Positions 20,958-49,310 of a DNA stretch of 64,000 nucleotides are shown piece after piece. Under the pieces are notes generated by a model that did not search any database, was not told where the DNA came from, and worked only from the letters and a program-made list of their open reading frames with translations. The first letter of the stretch is position 1. Every line of letters starts with the position of its first letter. This DNA comes from Actinomycetota bacterium (GTDB taxonomy: Bacteria > Actinomycetota > Acidimicrobiia > Acidimicrobiales > Ilumatobacteraceae), in assembly GCA_026393575.1 (NCBI GenBank), contig JAPKZX010000073.1, positions 4,793 through 68,792 of the forward strand. The letters run 5' to 3'. The position numbers and the translations under genes are program-made.

Positions 20958-21773
20958 TTACTTACCAATTGATGCGCGAGGCTCTGTGCCCACTGCACCT
21001 GGCTTAGTCGTAAGCATGGCGAAATCTTTTTCAATGGTGTCGAAACTGGTTGAACCCGCTTCAAGGCCAAGGAAAATTTCTGATTCTGGTGAACACCAGG
21101 TTTCGTATTCTGCTGCCCACTCTTCGCTCTTGGGGTCTGCGCCACTAATCGCGTAACGCGCGTGGCACACCACGGAAAGAATTTCTGCTTCAGTCAAAGC
21201 ACCGCCTGCTTTTTCACCTTGCATTGGCATCGGGTTTCCGTTGTATGAAAGTGGAGCATGCGCGCCACCTTCACGGTTTGGATCTCCGTACGTCTTGATT
21301 TCAGCAGCTGCGTATTTCTGGCTTCCGTTGTAGACGAAGTTCAACATGTCTTCAATGTGTGGGAAAGTTTTCATCACTTCACCCTGATACAAAATTCGTC
21401 CAGCTCCACCAGCACCATCGGCGCCGTGGCATCCGGCGCACGAACCGAACACGGTTGCGCCAATAGACATTGGTCCAGCAAGAACTTTTTCCGCAGGCTT
21501 TAAAGCAATGAGATACAACGCTGCCCATGCTGGCAATAAAGCAAGACCTGCCATTGCCCAGAATGGAATCTTTTTGCGTGACTTGGCTGCAGCAACGTAT
21601 GGCGGATCAGCAACAACAGGTTTTGGTGCAGGAGCTTCTGCTGCTTTTGCAGGTGTGGCAGGGGTAGCGACTGCTGGGGTCGATGATGGGGCGCTATCGC
21701 CAGACGCATCGCCAGACGCATCTGCGCGACGTGCCTTGGAGCGATTCAGAAGGTGCTCGGGAATCTCGGTCAC
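20958..21773 (-). CDS. membrane-anchored mono-heme c-type cytochrome
   Basis: Single CAGCH heme-binding motif after one TM helix (FWAMAGLALLPAWAALYLIAL). The N-terminal tail is Ala/Pro-rich. GTG start. Confidence 0.8.
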   Translation of the reverse strand: MTEIPEHLLNRSKARRADASGDASGDSAPSSTPAVATPATPAKAAEAPAPKPVVADPPYVAAAKSRKKIPFWAMAGLALLPAWAALYLIALKPAEKVLAGPMSIGATVFGSCAGCHGADGAGGAGRILYQGEVMKTFPHIEDMLNFVYNGSQKYAAAEIKTYGDPNREGGAHAPLSYNGNPMPMQGEKAGGALTEAEILSVVCHARYAISGADPKSEEWAAEYETWCSPESEIFLGLEAGSTSFDTIEKDFAMLTTKPGAVGTEPRASIGK

Positions 21774-21934: not shown

Positions 21935-22003
21935 TTGTGCGATTGTGCTTTTTGGGCACAACAGCACAACCTCGTAGCGGTCCCAAAACGCACAAAAGCA
22001 CAA
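21935..22003. promoter_or_regulatory. array of six TTGTGC/GCACAA hexamers (candidate operator) in a divergent intergenic region
   Basis: TTGTGC(21935)-ga-TTGTGC(21943)-tttttgg-GCACAA(21956)-ca-GCACAA(21964), followed by GCACAA(21990)-aa-GCACAA(21998). Confidence 0.35.
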
Positions 22004-22152
22004 CCTCAACTTGGTGATTGCAGGTTTACATGCGACAGAAGTCGCCCTTCGGGAAATGGGTAAACAGGGTGGTCAGGTGACTAGTCTTTCTATTACTTAG
22101 GCACCTGCCCCAGGCAATTACCGTCACCAGGACCGGAGAAGAAGAACAGTCC

Positions 22153-22629
22153 ATGATCGCGATCGACATCCTTAGATGGCCCGGAGTCAACCAGGCATTC
22201 CTGTTTTCCTTTTTCGCTACCACCGCTATGGCTCTCATTGTCATTCCGATTGGGAAACGTCGCCCAATAGCTAAGGCTGCGACATGGGGCGAAGCCATGA
22301 TTGGTTCTGTATACACGTTCTTCGTCATGTTCTTGGCGTTTGGTGTTGTTCCTCACCAGTTCATCGACCATGCAGACAAAGAACTCGGATGGCGTAAGGA
22401 CAAATTGTTGTACGGCCCTTTCGACATCTTCAATGCCAAGGCCAACGGCGGAAATTTCCCGTTTACGCTGAGCTATGAAGCAATTCGCGACATCGCTGTA
22501 GTCGTCATTCACGTCTACTTCATTGGTCTCATGATTTACATGTTCGTCTGGTGGCAGAAGCGTGGCGAGAAAGTCACAAAAGAGATCGAAACTTCGTCCT
22601 ACGGTCGCCCATTGGTGCGAAAGAGTTAA
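22153..22629 (+). CDS. hypothetical integral membrane protein (first gene of the Rieske/cyt b cluster)
   Basis: Three or four predicted TM helices. A GGAGAAG sequence sits upstream of the ATG. I recognise no family. Confidence 0.6.
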   Translation: MIAIDILRWPGVNQAFLFSFFATTAMALIVIPIGKRRPIAKAATWGEAMIGSVYTFFVMFLAFGVVPHQFIDHADKELGWRKDKLLYGPFDIFNAKANGGNFPFTLSYEAIRDIAVVVIHVYFIGLMIYMFVWWQKRGEKVTKEIETSSYGRPLVRKS

Positions 22630-22635
22630 GAAATC

Positions 22636-23049
22636 ATGGCTCGCACAGACGCAAACCCACCGATGCCAGAATGGTCAACTGAGTATCAACTCGTTGAAGT
22701 TGATGCTGACTACTTGGGCAAAGCTGTAAAGCCAAAACAGTTCATTCATATTGACCAAAGTGAATGCATCATGTGCGAAGGCTGCGTCGACATCTGCCCA
22801 TGGAAGTGCATCCATATGGTGACTCCCGATGCTGTTGCAGAAGCAACAGATACGGAGATGCCTGGTTCAGATCCATCTGACAACGTTCTTTTCATCATCG
22901 ATGACGATGTGTGTACACGGTGTGCACTGTGCGTCGATCGCTGTCCAACTGGCGTCATCATTCTGGGCAAAGTCGGTGCACCCGATCCAGAAGGTGACAG
23001 TCACACCCGAACAAACAATCATGGCTACGGCTATGGAATGCGCCTCTGA
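22636..23049 (+). CDS. 2x[4Fe-4S] ferredoxin-type protein
   Basis: Two CxxCxxCxxxCP motifs: CIMCEGCVDICP and CTRCALCVDRCP. Confidence 0.85.
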   Translation: MARTDANPPMPEWSTEYQLVEVDADYLGKAVKPKQFIHIDQSECIMCEGCVDICPWKCIHMVTPDAVAEATDTEMPGSDPSDNVLFIIDDDVCTRCALCVDRCPTGVIILGKVGAPDPEGDSHTRTNNHGYGYGMRL

Positions 23050-23061
23050 GGTAAGTGAATC

Positions 23062-23785
23062 ATGGCAAAAGTATTAGATAACCCTCGTCCAACTCTGAAA
23101 GAGCGGGCAGCCAAACTCGGAGGCCAAGTTCAAGGCAGCCAAGTATGGAACTCAATCTTTCGACCAGGTTCGATTTTCCGTAAGGGCTACACCGATAGCC
23201 CTCGTAACCGTTCGTACGTAATCATGAACTCGGTGCTGTATCACTTGCACCCAGTGAAGGTGAAGCGTCACGCAGTCAAAGTCAGTTACACGCTGTGTCT
23301 TGGTGGTTTGAGTTTCTTTCTCTTCATCTTGCTCACTGTCACCGGAATCTTCTTGATGTTCTTCTACCGACCAACAGGTGCAAACGCATGGCAAGACATT
23401 CAGACCTTGCAGACATCAGTGACTTTCGGTTTGCTCATTCGCAACATGCATCGTTGGGGAGCACACCTCATGGTGTTGTCAGTGTTCTTGCACATGGCGC
23501 GTGTTTTCTACCACGGTGCATACAAGCCACCTCGTGAATTCAACTGGGTAATTGGTGTCGTTCTCTTGACACTCACTTTGTTGTTGTCCTTCACCGGTTA
23601 CTTGTTGCCATGGGATCAGCTTGCTCTCTGGGCAGTAACGGTGGGTACCAACATGATGGGGTATTCGCCGGTCATTGGTTCGGTACGTGCTTCACGTACT
23701 CATGCTTCCTTTCGTCATCGTCATCTTTATGGCAATTCACTTCTGGCGCGTCCGCAAAGACGGCGGAATCTCTGGACCTCTGTAA
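23062..23785 (+). pseudogene. cytochrome b6-type (N-terminal cytochrome b) gene, frame-disrupted as given
   Basis: Helices A-C are in frame 1 ([35 protein letters not shown]...[25 protein letters not shown]). Helix D and the conserved C-terminus [33 protein letters not shown]-stop (TAA 23783-23785) are in the +1 frame. About 20 residues of the cd loop are absent. The track ORF 23062-23808 ends in a non-homologous Arg-rich tail. Confidence 0.7.
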
Positions 23786-23800
23786 GCGAGGGAGCACACA

Positions 23801-24535
23801 ATGACTGAAATTCCTGAACACCTACTGAAGCGAGCACAAGCAGCTCGTGAGAAGGCCGCGGCTGAATCAGATGCGCCTGCCGATGCAGGTGCTGGCGATT
23901 CACGCATTCCTGATCATCTTTTGGAACGAAGCAAAGCAGCTCGCGCAAGCGGAGACGGCGCAGTAGCAGTTGCGGATAAAGCAACAGCAGTTGTTGCAAG
24001 TGCGCCGGCCGGATCAGTGCCAGTGGGTGCCGGACCTGGTGGGCACACTCAACGTCTTCTTACTGTTGTGAAGTCTGGTTCTATCCAAGAAACAAAAGCA
24101 GCACCTGTCGACAAGGTGCACACGTGGCCTCACTTGTTGGCTGTTGAATTTGTTGCTGCACTTGCGTGCACAGCGTTCTTGTTCGTGTTCTCTTGGGTCG
24201 TTAACGCACCGTTGCTGCACGCAGCAGACTTCAACAAAACACCAAACCCATCGAAGGCACCTTGGTACTTCTTGGGTCTTCAGGAACTTCTCACCATGTT
24301 CCACCCAATGATCGCTGGCGTGACATTGCCTGGCATGGGTCTTGTTGCACTTATTTTGGCTCCATACGTTGACCGCAATACTTCGAACAAACCAGAAGAT
24401 CGCAAATGGATGACATCCATGATGACGCTTTTCCTTATGTTCTGGGCAGTGTTGGTCATCATTGGTTCGTTCTTCCGTGGTCCAGGGTTCAACTTCACCT
24501 TCCCATGGCGAGATGGCATTTTCTTCGAGTTGTGA
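23801..24535 (+). CDS. cytochrome b C-terminal domain protein (b6f subunit IV-like)
   Basis: [19 protein letters not shown] (PEWY-region equivalent) with three TM helices. GAGGGAG Shine-Dalgarno sequence upstream. A long N-terminal tail carries two IP(E/D)HLL repeats. Confidence 0.85.
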
Positions 24536-24598
24536 TTTCACTTCTCAGTAACAACTAATTATTCGACGTAAAGACAAAGGAACAAGGAACGTAAAGGC

Positions 24599-25447
24599 AT
24601 GAGTACCGGAATCGTCATAACGATCGTGGTGATCGCAGCAGTTGTCTTCGGGGCAATTGTTGTGTTGACCACCGCTCGTAGCTCCGAAGTTCGTGGTGCC
24701 GGCGCGTTGTCGCGCGAGACACGTTCACGTGATCGCAAAGCAACAATCTCTGGCAGCGCACCGACTGGTCGCGAAGTAGAAGCAGCGTCACGTACAAAAG
24801 AAGTAGTGGTTGCAGCACCTGTTGCGGTAGAACCATTTGTTGCTCCCGACGAAGAAGCGCTTGGCGTTTCTCGCCGTATGTTTTTCAACCGTGCAGCAGT
24901 CACACTCATGGCGGCAAGCCTTGGTGCATTCGGAGCATCTGTAGTGGCGTTCTTGTGGAAAGGCGCCGAAGGCGGATTCGGTTCGAAAATAAATGCCGGA
25001 AAATTGTCAGATGTCATCTCTGGCATCCGAGCGAACAAAGGCTTTTTGTACTTGTCTGAAGCACGTGCGTGGGTAACTGAATATCCCAAAGATGCTCTTG
25101 GTAAAGGAAATGCCATCTACGGAAAGCAATCACCTGTGTACTCAGGTATGCAATCTGGAATTGTCGCGTTGTATCAGAAGTGCCCACACCTTGGTTGTCG
25201 TGTTCCTGAATGCAAGAGCTCGCAATGGTTCGAATGTCCATGTCATGGTTCGCAATACAACCGTGTAGGCGAGAAGAAAGGTGGCCCTGCTCCTCGTGGC
25301 ATGGATCGCTTTGGAGTTTCTATCGCTAACGGCGTTCTCACAATCGACACTGGCGCAGTTTTTGCAGGCCCAGCAATTGGCACAAACACAACAGGTCAAG
25401 AAGCTGAAGGTCCGCACTGCATCGGTTCAACCGGAGGGAAGCACTAA
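24599..25447 (+). CDS. Rieske [2Fe-2S] iron-sulfur subunit
   Basis: CPHLGCRV...CPCHGSQY cluster-binding boxes, and an internal SRRMFFNRAAV twin-Arg-like segment before the second TM. Confidence 0.9.
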   Translation: MSTGIVITIVVIAAVVFGAIVVLTTARSSEVRGAGALSRETRSRDRKATISGSAPTGREVEAASRTKEVVVAAPVAVEPFVAPDEEALGVSRRMFFNRAAVTLMAASLGAFGASVVAFLWKGAEGGFGSKINAGKLSDVISGIRANKGFLYLSEARAWVTEYPKDALGKGNAIYGKQSPVYSGMQSGIVALYQKCPHLGCRVPECKSSQWFECPCHGSQYNRVGEKKGGPAPRGMDRFGVSIANGVLTIDTGAVFAGPAIGTNTTGQEAEGPHCIGSTGGKH

Positions 25448-25449
25448 TT

Positions 25450-26514
25450 ATGTTCGCAACAACGAGCACCTCCATTGCATGGCTCATTCTCCTGGTCTCA
25501 GTGGCCGGTTGGATTGTGTATGCAATTTTTAACGTGCGTGGTTCACGTTCAGAGATTGGCGCCGAACAAAAACTGGCCGCCAACCGCAAGGAGTACTACG
25601 ACGACGAAGCACTTGAAGGACCACGTCTTGAACGAGTTCAAGTTTTAGGTCTTCTCTTCCTTGTCATCATCACAATTGCATTACCGTTGTATTGGGTAAT
25701 GGAACCGCATCGCCAAGCAGAAGCAACTTTTGGTTTTGAAAAGCGCTTCACCGATTGGGGCGCACAATTGTTCGCACCAACAGCAGACGGTGGTTACAAC
25801 TGTTCAGGCTGTCACGGTGGAATGAAAGCAACTGGTGGTGTTGCTGCTTATGCAGTGACCGACCCAAAGACTGGCGAAGTGAAGTCTGTTTCATGGAAAG
25901 CACCAGCACTGAACACAGTGATGTATCGCTATTCAGAAGAAGAAGTGCGTTTTATTCTTAATTACGGTCGTCCGTTCTCGCCAATGTCGGCGTGGGGAAC
26001 TATCGGCGGTGGGCCAATGAATGATCAGTCGATTACTACTTTGATTGATTATTTGAAGTCCATTCAGATTCCGCAGGAAAATTGCGTGGCAACTCGTGCC
26101 GCATACAACCCAACGTGTGACGACGGAGATCTTCCTGCTGCAAACAACAAAGAAGTCATTGCTGAAGCACAACGACAAGTTGACAGTGGCAAGTACGGCT
26201 CACTTGGAGAAGCGTTGTTTAATCTCGACCTTGGTTCCGGCGCTTATTCATGTGCGCGTTGCCATACAAAGGGATGGTCATACGACGATCCACAAGTGAC
26301 TGGTGGTGGCGCTCTTGGGCCAAACCTCACTGGTGGATCATCCATTCGTCAATTCCCGAACCAGGCAGACATGGTCGCTTTTATTCAAAGCGGTTCTGAA
26401 CTTGGTAAGCGATACGGCGAACAAGGCCAGGGCAGTGGGCGTATGCCCGCCTTTGGTCAGTTGTACACAGAAGATCAAATCAAATTGATCGTTGAATACG
26501 TGCGGAGCCTCTGA
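25450..26514 (+). CDS. membrane-anchored diheme c-type cytochrome
   Basis: Two heme motifs, CSGCH and CARCH, and two N-terminal TM helices. Confidence 0.85.
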   Translation: MFATTSTSIAWLILLVSVAGWIVYAIFNVRGSRSEIGAEQKLAANRKEYYDDEALEGPRLERVQVLGLLFLVIITIALPLYWVMEPHRQAEATFGFEKRFTDWGAQLFAPTADGGYNCSGCHGGMKATGGVAAYAVTDPKTGEVKSVSWKAPALNTVMYRYSEEEVRFILNYGRPFSPMSAWGTIGGGPMNDQSITTLIDYLKSIQIPQENCVATRAAYNPTCDDGDLPAANNKEVIAEAQRQVDSGKYGSLGEALFNLDLGSGAYSCARCHTKGWSYDDPQVTGGGALGPNLTGGSSIRQFPNQADMVAFIQSGSELGKRYGEQGQGSGRMPAFGQLYTEDQIKLIVEYVRSL

Positions 26515-27320
26515 TGTTGTCAGCGTTACTTTCAGTCGGTTGGGAACCCGAAATTCGGGGATGGATCATTGTCATCATCAGCGTGACAGTGCTCATGGGC
26601 TCTACGTATTTGTTGCTCGGTACCAATGTTGGTGCTCGTCTTGGTTTTCTCATCGCGCTTGCCGCACTTTCTGGCTGGATGATGTCGATGGCAATCATTT
26701 GGGCTGTGTACGGAATTGGTCTGAAGGGGCCAGACCCAACATGGCATCCGAGTGAACCCGTCACCATCGTGCGTGATGGTGCGTTACTAGACCGGGCTGA
26801 AGTTGTTGATGCGCCGATTGACATTGCTGGGCTCGACGCAACGAAAGCTGCGGATGTTGTTTCTAAGACATTGGTAGAAGATGGTTGGAAGATTCTTGAA
26901 GAGTCCGACCCTGCACGTGGACGTGCGATCGCTTCTGCTGATGAAATTGTTCAGGTTCAAGCCGAAGAATTTGCTGCCGGTGAATACGCCACCATCAACG
27001 TGTATGACAAAGGTGGCGAGCGGTATCCAAAAATCGGTAATTCCATCGACTTCATCGCATTCAAGCACAAGCCTCGTTACGCAATCGTTGAGATTGCGCC
27101 GTTGCTTGAACAGCGCGCCGAACCAGGTCGTGCACCAGCACGTGCACAGATCGACACTACGAAGCCTCACCGTTACGTCGTCATGATTCGTGACCTTGGT
27201 GCAAAGCGTCGCCCTGCATTCCTTATTGGCATCGGCTCTGGCCTTATTTTCTTCTTGTTGTGCTGGCTTCTCCATCGTCGTGAAGCACTGTTGCGCAAGA
27301 ACCTCGCACTGAAGGCATAG
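26514..27320 (+). CDS. hypothetical integral membrane protein (between the cytochrome c gene and nuoA)
   Basis: The start overlaps the upstream stop (TGATG). Three N-terminal TM helices and one C-terminal TM helix. The stop lies 4 nt before nuoA. Confidence 0.6.
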   Translation: MLSALLSVGWEPEIRGWIIVIISVTVLMGSTYLLLGTNVGARLGFLIALAALSGWMMSMAIIWAVYGIGLKGPDPTWHPSEPVTIVRDGALLDRAEVVDAPIDIAGLDATKAADVVSKTLVEDGWKILEESDPARGRAIASADEIVQVQAEEFAAGEYATINVYDKGGERYPKIGNSIDFIAFKHKPRYAIVEIAPLLEQRAEPGRAPARAQIDTTKPHRYVVMIRDLGAKRRPAFLIGIGSGLIFFLLCWLLHRREALLRKNLALKA

Positions 27321-27324
27321 CGCA

Positions 27325-27774
27325 ATGGGTCAGTACCTTCCCATTTTGGCGTTAACGGTGCTGGCGATTCTTTTCGCATTACTTAGCCTCATTGCTTCTC
27401 GGTTGTTGGCACCTAATCGTCCAAGTTCAGCTAAAGAAGCACCATACGAATGCGGCATTGTTCCAAGTCGTGAACCGCCTGAACGCTTTCCTGTCAGCTT
27501 CTATGTCATTGCAATGTTGTTCATCATGTTTGACATTGAAATCATTTTTGCTTACCCATACGCAGTAGACAGAGAGTTCCTCGGGTCTTTTGCGTTCTTC
27601 GAAATGCTTGCGTTTAGCGTTGTTTTCTTTGTTGCATTTGTGTACATGGTTGCACGCGGTGCTCTTGAGTGGGGCCCCATCATGCGGTCAGCAAAACTTG
27701 ATCCGCAATCAAGCACTGGTGTTCAGGCAAGCGGAACCGTGCGCGTTGTTGGTCGCGAAGGACGAGCAGCCTGA
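27325..27774 (+). CDS. nuoA: NADH-quinone oxidoreductase subunit A
   Basis: [11 protein letters not shown] and [15 protein letters not shown] motifs. Confidence 0.9.
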
Positions 27775-28355
27775 TGGGATTAGTTCAGAATGTTCTTGAC
27801 GACGGACTTGGTGGCATTGAGCACAACTTTGTTACTGCCCGTATCGAAGATTTAGTCAAGTGGGCACGTTCACGTTCTAGCTGGGGCGCTTCATTCGGTC
27901 TTGCTTGTTGCGCCATCGAAATGATGGGAACTGGTGCATCGCATTACGACTTGTCTCGTTTCGGAATGGAAGTGTTCCGCGCATCTCCTCGTCAGGCAGA
28001 CATCATGATTGTTGCTGGCCGTGTTAGTCAGAAAATGGCTCCAGTGTTGCGCCAGGTATACGACCAGATGATGGAACCTAAGTGGGTCATCTCCATGGGT
28101 GTCTGTGCATCAAGTGGCGGAATGTTTAACAACTACGCAATTGTGCAAGGCGTCGATCAGATCGTGCCAGTAGATGTTTATGCGCCAGGATGCCCTCCAA
28201 CACCAGAGACATTGATACATGCCATTGAGACATTGCATCAATTGATTGAAGATGGCGAAATCATGCGTCGTCGTGAATCAAATAATGGTGGTGCAGGAAT
28301 TCAACTCACTGAGGGCGCAGTTACTGCTGCTCCTGTCACGCTTGGAACGAAGTAA
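27774..28355 (+). CDS. nuoB: NADH-quinone oxidoreductase subunit B
   Basis: [21 protein letters not shown] and APGCPP (N2 cluster ligands). Confidence 0.93.
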
Positions 28356-35786: not shown

Positions 35787-36439
35787 TGGGTTACTTCGGT
35801 GGATTCCTTGTCACCATGCGTCAGCATGGTGCACGCAACAAAGTGACGACTGAGTATTCGGGCGGTCGCGTTTTCCGTCGCAAGAATCGCGATGAGCACG
35901 ACGAGAAAATTGAAAAGCCCGAGCGCATGCACGGTCGCCACGTGCTCAATCGTTATGAAGACGGTATGGAAAAGTGCATCGGCTGTGAGTTGTGTGCTGG
36001 TGTTTGTCCTGCCAAGTGCATCTATGTACGCGGGGCCGATAATGACCCTGACAATCCAACCTCTCCCGGCGAGCGTTTTGGTTTTGTGTACGAAATCAAT
36101 TACTTGCGTTGCATCCATTGCGATATGTGCGTCGAGGCTTGCCCTACCGAAGCAATTACTGAGACAAAATTATTTGAGTTCTCATTTACGAATCGCAAAG
36201 ACGCCATCTATACAAAGGATGAATTACTCGTCGATACCACGGGTCAGCCACAACATCTTCCATGGGAAGACTGGCGTCCAGGTGAAGATCAGCACACATC
36301 TGGTTGGATGAGGGCAACAGCTCCATCAGGCGATGCTTCATTTGAAGGTGTTGTTGCGTGGAGCGGAGAACTTGGCCACGGGGTGCGTGCGCCAGAACCA
36401 CCACAGAGTGACCGCGATGAATCAGAGGCGGATCACTAA
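35786..36439 (+). CDS. nuoI: NADH-quinone oxidoreductase subunit I
   Basis: [12 protein letters not shown] and [12 protein letters not shown]. Confidence 0.92.
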
Positions 36440-48813: not shown

Positions 48814-49310
48814 TGGCTAAGCCCAAAGTTCCTGGTTTGTTTAAGGGCCTCGGGGTCACTTTCGGTACGTTGATGCGTACAGCAACTGAAGGGTCAAACA
48901 CCATTCAGTATCCGCACGAAAAGGAGACACCTCCTGTTCGTGCGCGCGGTGTTATCGCATTGCATGAAGGCAACTGCACCTCGTGCATGTTGTGTGCACG
49001 TTCATGTCCCGACTGGTGCATCTACATCGAAGGTCATAAAGAGTTGGCACCACCGCGTCGTGCTGGCGGTTCTCCTCGTAAGGTCAACAAACTCGATCGT
49101 TTTGATATAGACTACGCACTCTGCATGTATTGCGGTATCTGTGTAGAGGTGTGTCCGTTCGACGCATTGTTCTGGAGCCCAGAATACGAATACTCAGAAC
49201 CTCGCATCGCCGACCTCTTGCATGACAAGTCAAAACTTGGCGAGTGGATGGAAACTGTTCCTGAAGCACCAGAACTTGAAGCTGGCGCAGATAAGAAGGG
49301 CAAGAAGTAA
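48813..49310 (+). CDS. nuoI: NADH-quinone oxidoreductase subunit I, second copy
   Basis: [12 protein letters not shown] and [15 protein letters not shown] 48813 overlaps the nuoH stop. Confidence 0.9.

What the first reader, a model, noticed from the sequence alone, without database searches (positions are those of the whole stretch)
22153..27320. b6f-style Rieske/cytochrome b cluster with extra ferredoxin and membrane subunits in a mycothiol-encoding actinobacterium
- Gene order is: unknown 3-4 TM protein, 2x[4Fe-4S] ferredoxin, cytochrome b6-type protein, separate subunit IV-like protein, Rieske protein, diheme cytochrome c, unknown 4-TM protein. All have tiny gaps or overlapping starts and stops.
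- Model actinobacteria (Mycobacterium, Corynebacterium) encode an unsplit QcrB in a qcrCAB operon.
- A split b6/subunit IV is the hallmark of cyanobacterial b6f and Firmicute bc complexes.
- The diheme cytochrome c, by contrast, is the actinobacterial hallmark, so the complex is a hybrid.
- A dicluster ferredoxin encoded immediately before cytochrome b is not part of canonical bc1 or b6f. It could mean an extra cytoplasmic electron entry or exit route.
Basis: partly seen in the sequence, partly recalled or inferred. Interest (0 to 1): 0.6.

Follow-up and report, generated by a model that had tools for sequence, protein, structure and literature searches.

The report
Ferredoxin-linked b6-type complex III operon
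This is the main quinol-oxidising respiratory operon (complex III) of a freshwater Ilumatobacteraceae actinobacterium: a chloroplast-like cytochrome b6/Rieske core that nearly always travels with its own small iron-sulfur ferredoxin, an untested feature already seen several times in this scan, and in this assembly its cytochrome b6 gene carries a 59-base frameshifting deletion.

Summary
The gene order is real: 3-TM protein, 2x[4Fe-4S] ferredoxin, cytochrome b6, subunit IV, Rieske, dihaem c, membrane protein, then nuoA 4 nt later.

The b6 gene is broken here by a 59-nt deletion plus frameshift that all same-genus relatives lack. The last membrane protein has 3 TM helices, not 4.
- **What it is.** The core belongs to the known "APWY"/subfamily-G clade of Rieske/cytochrome b complexes. 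It has the APWY Qo motif, the CLGG haem-cn cysteine and a high-potential-type Rieske (CPCHGSQY). Kao & Hunte (2014) already recorded a split cytochrome b for Ilumatobacter.
- **The dihaem c** shows no detectable homology to solved actinobacterial QcrC, so "hybrid" holds only for architecture.
- **Distribution.** Ferredoxin-b6-subunit IV-Rieske-cytochrome c is syntenic in about 20 families of Actinomycetota. Four genomes of one family keep the complex but have lost the ferredoxin.
- **Nearest relatives of the ferredoxin** are the C-terminal dicluster modules of the NAD(P)-oxidoreductase subunits of Kuenenia-type complexes.
- **Best reading (inferred).** It is an accessory cytoplasmic electron port on cytochrome b6.

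This scan found the same operon at least eight times on other genomes. It is a new variant of a known kind, of moderate interest.

The parts
20958..21773 (-). Divergently transcribed membrane-anchored monohaem cytochrome c (271 aa). Its cytoplasmic N-tail carries the motif IPEHLLNRS.
   Evidence: PF00034. Conserved at this position across the order. Motif.
21935..22008 (.). Nested TTGTGC/GCACAA palindromes in the 379-nt divergent spacer. Candidate operator of Rex/CRP type, but the spacing is one base off both consensuses.
   Evidence: Inverted repeats I1-I7 and direct repeat D1. Function not tested.
22153..22629 (+). 158-aa membrane protein with 3 TM helices and no known family. The cytoplasmic loop GKRRP...WGE and the C-tail S.YGRPLV[KR]K are invariant or nearly so.
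   Evidence: No Pfam or NCBIfam hit. Alignment A3 of 25 orthologs. Syntenic in Acidimicrobiia.
22636..23049 (+). 137-aa cytoplasmic 2x[4Fe-4S] ferredoxin. It is acidic (pI 4.4, net charge -13), has a conserved N-terminal extension (DY..VD..[WY]L...VKPK) and a class-specific C-tail HGYGYGMRL.
   Evidence: All 8 Cys are invariant. No signal or Tat motif in the sequence. Scores 25.5 bits against NuoI, whose cut-off is 113. Syntenic across the phylum.
23062..23680 (+). Cytochrome b6, 5' part (residues 1-207). Contains a basic 73-residue N-terminal extension (the first 75 residues carry +11), the CLGG haem-cn motif and the helix B histidines.
23681..23785 (+). Cytochrome b6, 3' part, in the +1 frame. 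Encodes helix D with both remaining haem-ligand histidines and ends ...GISGPL-TAA. A 59-nt deletion relative to relatives lies at the 23680/23681 junction.
   Evidence: Relatives are intact.
23801..24535 (+). Subunit IV (244 aa, 3 TM helices) with the Qo motif APWY. Its cytoplasmic N-tail of about 105 aa carries two copies of IP[ED]HLLxR[SA].
   Evidence: PF00032 and ExtQ-like. Motif.
24599..25447 (+). Rieske [2Fe-2S] protein. It has an N-terminal TM helix, an internal SRRMFF Tat-like motif and a second TM helix. Cluster boxes are CPHLGC and CPCHGSQY, the high-potential type.
   Evidence: The best solved relatives are the Kuenenia Rieske proteins 9rk4 and 9rk3, then b6f PetC.
25450..26514 (+). 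Dihaem class-I cytochrome c (354 aa) with two N-terminal hydrophobic helices.
   Evidence: No match to solved QcrC.
26514..27320 (+). 268-aa membrane protein of unknown family: 2 N-terminal TM helices, a soluble domain of about 160 aa, and 1 C-terminal TM helix. Its start overlaps the cytochrome c stop (ATGA).
   Evidence: No family. 1967 homologs, all unnamed or called hypothetical. Weakly conserved across the phylum. The AF2 model is poor.
27325..28355 (+). nuoA and nuoB, the start of the complex I operon, 4 nt downstream and on the same strand.
   Evidence: The adjacency is conserved in the order but not in the other-class loci fetched with enough downstream sequence. The true nuoI is at window 35900-36226.

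Best explanation
**Identity (well supported).** This is the only Rieske/cytochrome b (complex III) operon found in a 1.9-Mb freshwater Ilumatobacteraceae (acIV, Acidimicrobiales) MAG. Its core is b6f-like:
- a four-helix cytochrome b6 with the CxGG cysteine for a third, covalently bound haem cn;
- a separate three-helix subunit IV with the Qo motif APWY;
- a high-potential-type Rieske protein.

This places it in the 'APWY clade' (Kao & Hunte) / subfamily G (Dibrova). Electrons from the quinol (presumably menaquinol) leave on the outer side through the Rieske protein to a membrane-anchored dihaem cytochrome c. From there they go to the aa3-type oxidase, perhaps through the divergently encoded monohaem c. 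The operon runs straight into nuoA-N.

**Mechanism of the extra parts (inferred).** The acidic 2x[4Fe-4S] protein is a cytoplasmic accessory subunit. It would dock on the strongly basic, invariant N-terminal extension of b6 and on the n-side surface of the complex. In Acidimicrobiia the 158-aa membrane protein would help hold it. It would wire two clusters to haem cn/bH. That gives the Qi side a one-electron entry or exit port for a soluble low-potential partner, which is what remains of the FeS wire of the Kuenenia-type NAD(P)-oxidoreductase subunits.

The ferredoxin is accessory, not core, because some genomes keep the complex without it.

**State in this assembly.** The b6 gene carries a 59-nt frameshifting deletion. 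This is more likely an assembly or minor-variant artefact than true loss of respiration.

**How the confidence figure is built.** It is for the whole statement, mechanism included. The identity part alone would be about 0.9.
For: **Identity**
- Pfam and NCBIfam assignments.
- Only one cytochrome b is found in the genome.
- The intact ortholog scores 171 bits against b6 of b6f and 87 against mycobacterial QcrB. It scores 310 bits against the Geobacter ExtP model.
- The APWY, CLGG and CPCHGSQY motifs are read directly from the sequence.
- The record titles of the closest loci name Ilumatobacteraceae.
- An aa3-type COX1 is present.

**Link of the ferredoxin to the complex**
- fdx-b6-suIV-Rieske-cyt c is syntenic in all fdx-bearing loci inspected, from about 20 families.
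- In the same sample of 301 genomes, 126 have the ferredoxin and 129 have the b6.
- The gaps around the ferredoxin gene are 6 and 12 nt.
- The ferredoxin is about as conserved as b6 and more conserved than the Rieske protein or the cytochrome c. Identity to two same-genus genomes: ferredoxin 100/96%, b6 99/96%, Rieske 94/76%.
- All 8 Cys and an N-terminal extension are conserved phylum-wide.

**Homology to a bound FeS wire**
- Its nearest non-orthologous relatives among 1.84 billion representatives are the C-terminal dicluster domains of GltD-like NAD(P)/FAD proteins (E about 1e-12).
- These genes sit beside APWY-type or b6-type cytochrome b genes in L157, L021 and L073.
- In Kuenenia such subunits are modelled as a four-cluster wire from haem cn/bN to FAD (PMC12954380).

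**Docking surface**
- The b6 segment FRPGS..R.GY.D..R.R....[13 protein letters not shown] is invariant or nearly so in 27 fdx-linked b6 proteins.
- The first 75 residues of b6 have pI 11.1 and net charge +11. The ferredoxin has pI 4.4 and net charge -13.
- The best-conserved parts of the 158-aa protein are cytoplasmic.
- Solved relatives of the ferredoxin are almost all complex-bound subunits: FwdF, MvhB, NdhI, RnfB, PscB, NuoI.
Against: - No binding, expression or structural data exist.
- The AF2 model of the ferredoxin is unusable (pLDDT 44).
- No genuine ferredoxin-b6 or membrane-protein-ferredoxin fusion was found. The apparent fusions are frameshifted junk.
- A small, acidic, soluble dicluster protein is also what a free carrier looks like.
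- Four genomes of one family, each 95-97% complete and one assembled as a single contig, keep b6-suIV-Rieske-cyt c with the invariant b6 extension but have no ortholog of the ferredoxin anywhere. So neither the complex nor the extension depends on it.
- Synteny within one phylum may reflect a single ancestral event.
- In this window b6 is broken, so as assembled the operon cannot make a working complex.
- An earlier check in this scan priced the 'working docked part' reading at 19/100.
Confidence: 0.5

Rival explanations
1. The ferredoxin is a free, soluble electron carrier that is only co-expressed with complex III. For example, it could be a general low-potential carrier for cytoplasmic enzymes, or a diffusible partner that touches the complex only briefly. 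It is not a subunit.
For: - It is small, acidic and has no membrane anchor.
- It was lost in four genomes that keep the complex.
- No fusion to any membrane subunit was found.
- Databases name it only generically: '4Fe-4S binding protein', 'NuoI', 'PreA'.
Against: - The position directly upstream of b6, with tiny gaps, is kept across classes.
- It is as conserved as b6 itself.
- It has family-specific N-terminal and C-terminal extensions.
- Its nearest relatives are modules of subunits encoded next to cytochrome b.
- Only about 155 clusters at 50% identity reach E <= 1e-10, so this is a narrow, dedicated family rather than a housekeeping ferredoxin.
Confidence: 0.25
2. The ferredoxin, and in Acidimicrobiia the 158-aa membrane protein, are biogenesis factors. 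They could supply reducing power for the thioether attachment of haem cn on the cytoplasmic side, or chaperone assembly. They would not be parts of the mature enzyme.
For: - All ferredoxin-linked b6 proteins have the CxGG cysteine, whereas the GltD-linked unsplit cytochromes b (L021, L073) lack it.
- No homologs of the plastid CCB haem-cn attachment factors were noticed in the cluster. No search for them was made.
Against: - Four genomes without the ferredoxin still have CLGG in b6.
- The homologous dicluster module occurs in GltD-type subunits attached to cytochromes b that have no haem-cn cysteine.
- Assembly factors are rarely as conserved as the catalytic subunit.
Confidence: 0.1
3. The locus is a decaying pseudogene operon in this organism. 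The 59-nt deletion in b6 is real and this lineage no longer uses a bc complex.
For: - The deletion and frameshift are in the assembled sequence.
- No other cytochrome b is found in the genome.
Against: - Every other gene of the operon is intact and 91-100% identical to a same-genus genome.
- All other same-genus copies examined have intact b6.
- An aa3-type cytochrome c oxidase, which needs reduced cytochrome c, is present.
- The genome is an 82%-complete MAG in 129 contigs, the kind of assembly where single-read or minor-variant errors survive.
- The aberrant product is not on record in any other assembly.
Confidence: 0.12

Closest known systems
'APWY clade' of Rieske/cytochrome b complexes (Kao & Hunte 2014, PMC4122944), roughly subfamily G of Dibrova et al. 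2013/2017 (PMC5600118). It includes the Geobacter ExtOPQ module.
   Same: - Split b6 plus subunit IV, APWY Qo motif and CxGG haem-cn motif.
- The intact ortholog passes the NCBIfam ExtP equivalog cut-off, 310 against 290 bits.
- Subunit IV matches ExtQ.
- Ilumatobacter was already listed among the split-b Actinobacteria that the paper assigns to the PEWY-cyt c or the APWY clade.
   Different: - The motif is CLGG, not the WCMGG typical of the clade.
- The partners are a dihaem class-I c and a small cytoplasmic ferredoxin.
- The Geobacter Ext cluster has multihaem cytochromes and no ferredoxin.
- Here it is the only bc-type complex found in an aerobe, not a second or third copy.
NAD(P)-oxidoreductase-bearing Rieske/cytochrome b complexes of anammox bacteria (Kuenenia Kuste4569-4574 and Kustd1480-1485; Kartal 2013, de Almeida 2016, Hauser 2025 PMC12954380)
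   Same: - The b6/subunit IV core with haem cn.
- High-potential Rieske. The best solved relatives of the Rieske protein here are 9rk4 and 9rk3.
- A cytoplasmic FeS module homologous to the ferredoxin here.
- Genuine GltD-type copies exist in the same phylum as second clusters (L021, L073).
   Different: - Only the two-cluster module is present. There is no FAD or NAD(P) domain and no Fer4_20 clusters.
- Subunit IV has 3 TM helices, not 5.
- The c-type partner is a dihaem class-I c, not a hexa- or octahaem c or an HAO-like protein.
- The partner of the FeS module is unknown.
Cyanobacterial/plastid cytochrome b6f (PetB, PetD, PetC)
   Same: - b6 aligns over residues 74-260, right up to the GISGPL C-terminus (E 2e-49).
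- It has the haem-cn cysteine.
- Rieske box II, CPCHGSQY, is of the high-potential type, and b6f PetC is among its best solved relatives.
- A ferredoxin-to-haem-cn route has long been proposed for cyclic electron flow (PMC5600118).
   Different: - No cytochrome f and no PetG/L/M/N genes.
- A 73-residue N-terminal extension on b6 and a tail of about 105 residues on subunit IV.
- A dedicated ferredoxin gene inside the operon.
- Respiratory, not photosynthetic.
Actinobacterial bcc complex (QcrCAB of Mycobacterium and Corynebacterium)
   Same: Both have a cytochrome c with two class-I haem domains, which could pass electrons to an aa3 oxidase without a soluble cytochrome c. Both lie in the same phylum.
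   Different: - Cytochrome b is split, and closer to b6 (87 against 171 bits).
- The Rieske protein scores only E 0.004 against the QcrA model.
- The dihaem c has no detectable similarity to solved QcrC and is anchored N-terminally.

Membership tests
Rieske/cytochrome b complex, b6f-type core | Four-helix cytochrome b with four His ligands for haems bL and bH | tested here: inconclusive
   The helix B histidines are in frame. The helix D histidines are encoded only in the +1 frame, after a 59-nt deletion. All same-genus orthologs examined are intact.
Rieske/cytochrome b complex, b6f-type core | Separate three-helix subunit IV carrying the Qo (PEWY-type) motif | tested here: met
   PF00032, E 1.5e-8. 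[13 protein letters not shown] and three hydrophobic helices can be read in the sequence.
Rieske/cytochrome b complex, b6f-type core | Rieske protein with CxH...CxxH cluster boxes, encoded next to cytochrome b | tested here: met
   CPHLGC and CPCHGSQY. PF00355. Matches to PetC and Kuenenia Rieske proteins.
Rieske/cytochrome b complex, b6f-type core | CxGG cysteine for covalent haem cn (ci) | tested here: met
   YTLCLGG; the CLGG motif is present in all 27 ferredoxin-linked orthologs. Actual haem attachment cannot be tested here.
APWY clade (Kao & Hunte 2014) | Qo motif APWY | tested here: met
   Read from the sequence. The definition comes from PMC4122944.
APWY clade (Kao & Hunte 2014) | Placement inside the clade on a cytochrome b tree | not tested
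   No reference sequences of the other clades were on hand. The only proxy is that the best curated family is Geobacter ExtP, at 310 bits and over its cut-off.
Cyanobacterial/plastid b6f complex | Cytochrome f (PetA) as the c-type subunit | tested here: not met
   The c-type subunit is a dihaem class-I cytochrome c (PF00034/PF13442).
Actinobacterial QcrCAB bcc complex | Unsplit QcrB of about 540 aa | tested here: not met
   Split into b6 and subunit IV. The QcrB_actin model scores 119 bits against a cut-off of 500.
Actinobacterial QcrCAB bcc complex | QcrC-type dihaem cytochrome c (homology) | tested here: not met
   No solved QcrC (for example 6adq, 6hwh, 7q21, 7e1v) is matched at E <= 0.01. 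No NCBIfam QcrC-type hit.
Kuenenia-type NAD(P)-linked Rieske/cytochrome b complex | GltD-like subunit with FAD/NAD(P) domains and four FeS clusters in the operon | tested here: not met
   Only a 137-aa dicluster protein is present. The full GltD-type subunit occurs in other clusters: L021, L073, L157.
Kuenenia-type NAD(P)-linked Rieske/cytochrome b complex | Membrane-proximal dicluster module homologous between the systems | tested here: met
   35-39% identity to the C-terminal domains in L021 and L073. P0491, P0495 and P0497 are the nearest non-orthologs in the representative library, at E about 1e-12. P0491 lies beside b6 and subunit IV.
NADH dehydrogenase subunit NuoI (the name several databases give the ferredoxin) | Score over the TIGR01971 cut-off and a position in a nuo operon | tested here: not met
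   25.5-45 bits against a cut-off of 113. The true nuoI is at window 35900-36226.

The most novel reading that the evidence does not exclude
The ferredoxin turns this complex III into a three-way redox machine.

- **Forward direction.** The high-potential Rieske branch pulls one electron of menaquinol 'downhill'. The other electron is pushed through very low-potential b haems and haem cn onto the bound [4Fe-4S] clusters, which reduce a cytoplasmic low-potential acceptor. This is quinol-based electron bifurcation, as proposed for Kuenenia.
- **Reverse direction.** Reduced ferredoxin from 2-oxoacid oxidoreductases is fed into the Qi site. This is a built-in ferredoxin:quinone reductase, the activity long sought in b6f.

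Either way, a large part of aerobic non-model Actinomycetota would have a route between the quinone pool and ferredoxin-level carriers that no textbook respiratory chain contains.
Probability: 0.15. Interest if true: 0.85.

Novelty: new variant of a known kind. Interest (0 to 1): 0.45.

Why it matters
**Scale.** Acidimicrobiia (acIV and marine groups) and related classes are abundant in lakes, oceans and soils. This operon is the only complex III found in this genome. The ferredoxin family alone has about 3,600 clusters at 90% identity in public data.

**An untested enzyme composition.** No bc1, bcc or b6f enzyme studied so far has a dedicated FeS protein on its cytoplasmic side. If it is a working subunit, it offers a simple, culturable, aerobic system (Ilumatobacter, Aquihabitans, Iamia) for two open questions:
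- whether haem cn can exchange electrons with a ferredoxin;
- whether Rieske/b complexes can bifurcate towards low-potential acceptors.

**Practical points.**
- Databases name the ferredoxin 'NuoI' or 'PreA', which is wrong.
- The intact b6 passes the NCBIfam equivalog cut-off for Geobacter 'selenite/tellurite reduction ExtP', so it may be misnamed in automatic annotation.
- In this MAG the b6 gene would be called as a 248-aa protein with a false tail.

Tried and rejected
- **Independent occurrence of the aberrant b6 product.** None is on record.
- **AF2 of the 268-aa membrane protein** (26 sequences): pLDDT 54.8. **AF2 of the ferredoxin** (51 sequences, 35-92% identity): pLDDT 44.4. Both are too poor, so no fold search was run.
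- **Rosetta-stone fusions.** Long hits in the 50% representative library that looked like membrane-protein-ferredoxin or ferredoxin-b6 fusions are frameshifted or error-ridden gene calls. Rejected.
- **Programmed frameshift in b6.** Rejected, because 20 conserved residues are missing as well.
- **Ferredoxin = NuoI.** Rejected.
- **Dihaem c = QcrC ortholog.** Rejected.
- **Ferredoxin shared with the Geobacter Ext cluster.** Rejected, because that cluster has none.
- **Names for the other classes carrying the operon.** Exact look-up gave mostly 'Actinomycetota bacterium'. Only Egibacteraceae and Acidimicrobiia were named.
- **Promoter and terminator scan.** It gave nothing above shuffled expectation.
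- **Equivalence of the conserved b6 His** (LYHLHP) to the His43/His62 ligand of the extra haem b modelled in Kuenenia. This could not be tested because no Kuenenia cytochrome b sequence was on hand.

Full report
**What is there.** Between 22153 and 27320, seven + strand ORFs follow one another with gaps of 6, 12, 15, 63, 2, -1 and 4 nt:
- a 158-aa membrane protein with no family;
- a 137-aa protein with two complete CxxCxxCxxxCP motifs;
- cytochrome b/b6;
- subunit IV (PF00032);
- a Rieske protein;
- a cytochrome c with two class-I haem domains;
- a 268-aa membrane protein with no family.

nuoA starts 4 nt later. A membrane-anchored monohaem cytochrome c is transcribed divergently, 379 nt upstream. 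The scan for promoters and terminators found nothing above shuffled expectation.

**The b6 gene is broken in this assembly.**
- Pfam matches only the first three quarters of the b6 profile.
- After residue 207 the listed ORF reads a non-homologous Arg/Ser/His tail.
- The +1 frame from 23681 reads [34 protein letters not shown]-stop. This is helix D with the two remaining haem ligands and the family C-terminus.
- Against a same-genus genome that is 97-99% identical on either side, 59 nt are missing at the junction. They encode QVRFVLLGGVEIGSETLLRW. The break lies between imperfect TTGGTT/TTGCGTT repeats.
- All other same-genus copies examined have the intact gene, with open frames of 261-264 aa.
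- It is the only cytochrome b found in this 82%-complete, 129-contig MAG. An aa3-type oxidase is present.
- The rest of the operon is 91-100% identical to that relative.
- The aberrant product is not recorded in any other assembly.

I read it as an assembly or minor-variant artefact (about 65%) rather than a fixed lesion. Only reads can settle this.

**What kind of complex it is.**
- The intact ortholog aligns with plastid and cyanobacterial b6 from residue 74 to the last residue (171 bits), against 87 bits for mycobacterial QcrB.
- Its best curated family is Geobacter ExtP, at 310 bits against a cut-off of 290. Subunit IV matches ExtQ.
- b6 has the CLGG haem-cn motif. Subunit IV has APWY at the Qo site.
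- The Rieske protein has CPHLGC and CPCHGSQY. The Ser and Tyr of box II mark high-potential Rieske proteins (established knowledge of the family).
- The best solved relatives of the Rieske protein are the two Kuenenia Rieske proteins 9rk4 and 9rk3, then b6f PetC.

This is the 'APWY clade' of Kao & Hunte. They listed Ilumatobacter coccineum among the few Actinobacteria with split cytochrome b, and assigned those sequences to the PEWY-cyt c or the APWY clade. They also noted that no member of the APWY clade has been characterised. It corresponds broadly to subfamily G of Dibrova et al..

The dihaem cytochrome c has no match to any solved QcrC at E <= 0.01 and no NCBIfam QcrC-type hit. It is anchored by N-terminal helices. 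So 'hybrid with the actinobacterial hallmark' is a resemblance of design, not of descent.

**Organism and distribution.**
- Record titles of the closest loci name Ilumatobacteraceae, acIV and Acidimicrobiales MAGs from lakes and rivers.
- The full set is conserved in 13 families of the order: divergent cytochrome c, 158-aa protein, ferredoxin, b6, subunit IV, Rieske, dihaem c, 268-aa protein, nuoA.
- In an even sample of 301 Actinomycetota genomes, 126 have the ferredoxin (E <= 1e-8) and 129 have this b6 (E <= 1e-60), in the same families.
- In every fdx-bearing locus I pulled out, from about 20 families, the order ferredoxin-b6-subunit IV-Rieske-cytochrome c holds wherever the contig reaches. 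A weak homolog of the 268-aa protein often follows. One of these families is named Egibacteraceae.
- Three features are confined to Acidimicrobiia or nearly so: the 158-aa protein, the nuo adjacency and the tail motif IP[ED]HLLxR[SA].

**The ferredoxin.**
- All eight cysteines are invariant. So is an N-terminal extension, DY..VD..[WY]L...VKPK, that generic ferredoxins lack.
- Within the genus it is as conserved as b6: 100% and 96% identity, against 94% and 76% for the Rieske protein.
- It is not NuoI. It scores 25-45 bits against a cut-off of 113, and the true nuoI is at 35900-36226.
- Scored against 1.84 billion representatives, the family is narrow: 155 clusters at E <= 1e-10.
- The nearest non-orthologs are the C-terminal dicluster domains of 595-615-aa proteins with Fer4_20 and Pyr_redox_2 domains, at E about 1e-12.
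- One of these sits in a cluster of cytochrome b6, subunit IV, GltD-like protein and multihaem cytochromes c.
- The same architecture occurs inside this phylum as second copies. It comprises a GltD-like subunit ending in the homologous dicluster domain, an unsplit APWY cytochrome b without the CxGG cysteine, a Rieske protein and a cytochrome c domain (monohaem in L021) (L021, L073).
- This is the Kuenenia type. There the NAD(P) oxidoreductase subunit is modelled on the cytoplasmic face, with four FeS clusters leading from haem cn/bN to FAD, and NAD(P)H production by bifurcation is proposed (PMC12954380).

The small ferredoxin here therefore corresponds to part of that wire. By inference it is the membrane-proximal pair of clusters, without the flavin end.

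**Where it could dock (inference).**
- b6 has a 73-residue N-terminal extension that b6f lacks.
- The segment FRPGS..R.GY.D..R.R....[13 protein letters not shown], just before the CLGG helix, is invariant or nearly so in all 27 ferredoxin-linked b6 proteins. The GltD-linked cytochromes b keep only LH[LI]YPVKV.
- The first 75 residues carry +11. The ferredoxin carries -13.
- The best-conserved parts of the 158-aa protein are its cytoplasmic loop and its invariant C-tail S.YGRPLV[KR]K.
- Acidimicrobial ferredoxins have a matching class-specific tail, HGY.YG.R[FL].
- Kuenenia models place an extra haem b between the two cytochromes b, ligated by a His in the N-terminal region. Whether the conserved His of LYHLHP is its equivalent could not be tested.

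**A limit on the claim.**
- Four genomes of one family, the family that also contains Egibacteraceae members with the ferredoxin, keep an upstream membrane protein, b6 with the invariant extension and CLGG, subunit IV, Rieske, dihaem c and the 268-aa homolog.
- They have no ferredoxin gene at the locus and no ortholog anywhere. One is a single-contig 4.6-Mb genome. All are 95-97% complete.
- So the ferredoxin is accessory. The complex and the b6 extension do not depend on it. 'Always', as earlier notes of this scan put it, is too strong.
- No true gene fusions support a physical complex, and AF2 gave no usable model.

I put the 'docked electron port' reading at roughly one half. A merely co-expressed soluble carrier gets about a quarter, and a biogenesis role about a tenth.

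**Comparison and novelty.**
- Known already: the core, its clade, the split gene in Acidimicrobiia, and the idea of a cytoplasmic redox module on this clade.
- Not found in the papers I searched: the minimal two-cluster subunit, its near-universal linkage to the sole complex III of aerobic Actinomycetota, and the two unnamed membrane proteins.
- This scan has reported the same operon at least eight times on other genomes.

I reached the same reading before looking at those notes. I add three things: the loss of the ferredoxin in one family, the ExtP naming hazard, and the state of b6 in this window.

Verdict: real, ordinary in its core, and a new variant of a known kind in its extra parts.

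Noticed in passing
window 23801-23950 and 21700-21773 (- strand): The short motif IP[ED]HLLxR[SA] occurs only three times in the whole genome: twice in the cytoplasmic N-tail of subunit IV and once in the N-tail of the divergent monohaem cytochrome c. It is conserved on both proteins across Acidimicrobiia and absent from the clusters of other classes. It may be a shared docking peptide. Function unknown.
   Followed up: partly
window 21935-22008: Nested TTGTGC/GCACAA palindromes and an 18-nt direct repeat lie in the spacer between the cytochrome c gene and the operon. The TTGTG-N9-CACAA spacing is one base longer than the Rex and CRP/FNR consensuses.
   Followed up: partly
L023:6661-7443 (same-genus intact b6); applies to window 23062-23785: The intact Acidimicrobiia b6 scores 310 bits against the NCBIfam equivalog 'selenite/tellurite reduction operon b-type cytochrome ExtP' (cut-off 290). 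Automatic annotation may therefore give complex III b6 of Actinomycetota a misleading Geobacter name.
   Followed up: partly
L160 (G194), L161 (G259), L162 (G207), L163 (G233): Four genomes of one family keep the b6-subunit IV-Rieske-dihaem c cluster but have lost the ferredoxin gene. Two sister genomes (G220, G311) keep it. This is a natural with/without comparison.
   Followed up: yes
L021:7014-9290 (-) and L073:5475-7952 (+): Second Rieske/cytochrome b clusters in some Actinomycetota. They encode a GltD-like NAD(P)/FAD subunit (open frames of 758 and 826 aa) with a C-terminal dicluster domain, next to an unsplit APWY cytochrome b that lacks the haem-cn cysteine. This is the Kuenenia-type architecture outside Planctomycetes.
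   Followed up: partly
window 48861-49238: A second NuoI-like gene (90 bits against TIGR01971) lies about 13 kb downstream of the true nuoI at 35900-36226. This suggests a second complex-I-like or related membrane-bound FeS module in the window.
   Followed up: no
G000:C68:31108-32406: A divergent COX1-like gene (126 bits) sits 3 kb upstream of the aa3-type COX1 (527 bits). Not examined here.
   Followed up: no
window 24599-24960: The Rieske protein has an N-terminal TM helix, a linker of about 70 residues, and then an internal twin-arginine-like motif (SRRMFFNR) before its second helix. This recalls the dual Sec/Tat insertion described for multi-helix actinobacterial Rieske proteins (my own knowledge, not tested).
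   Followed up: no
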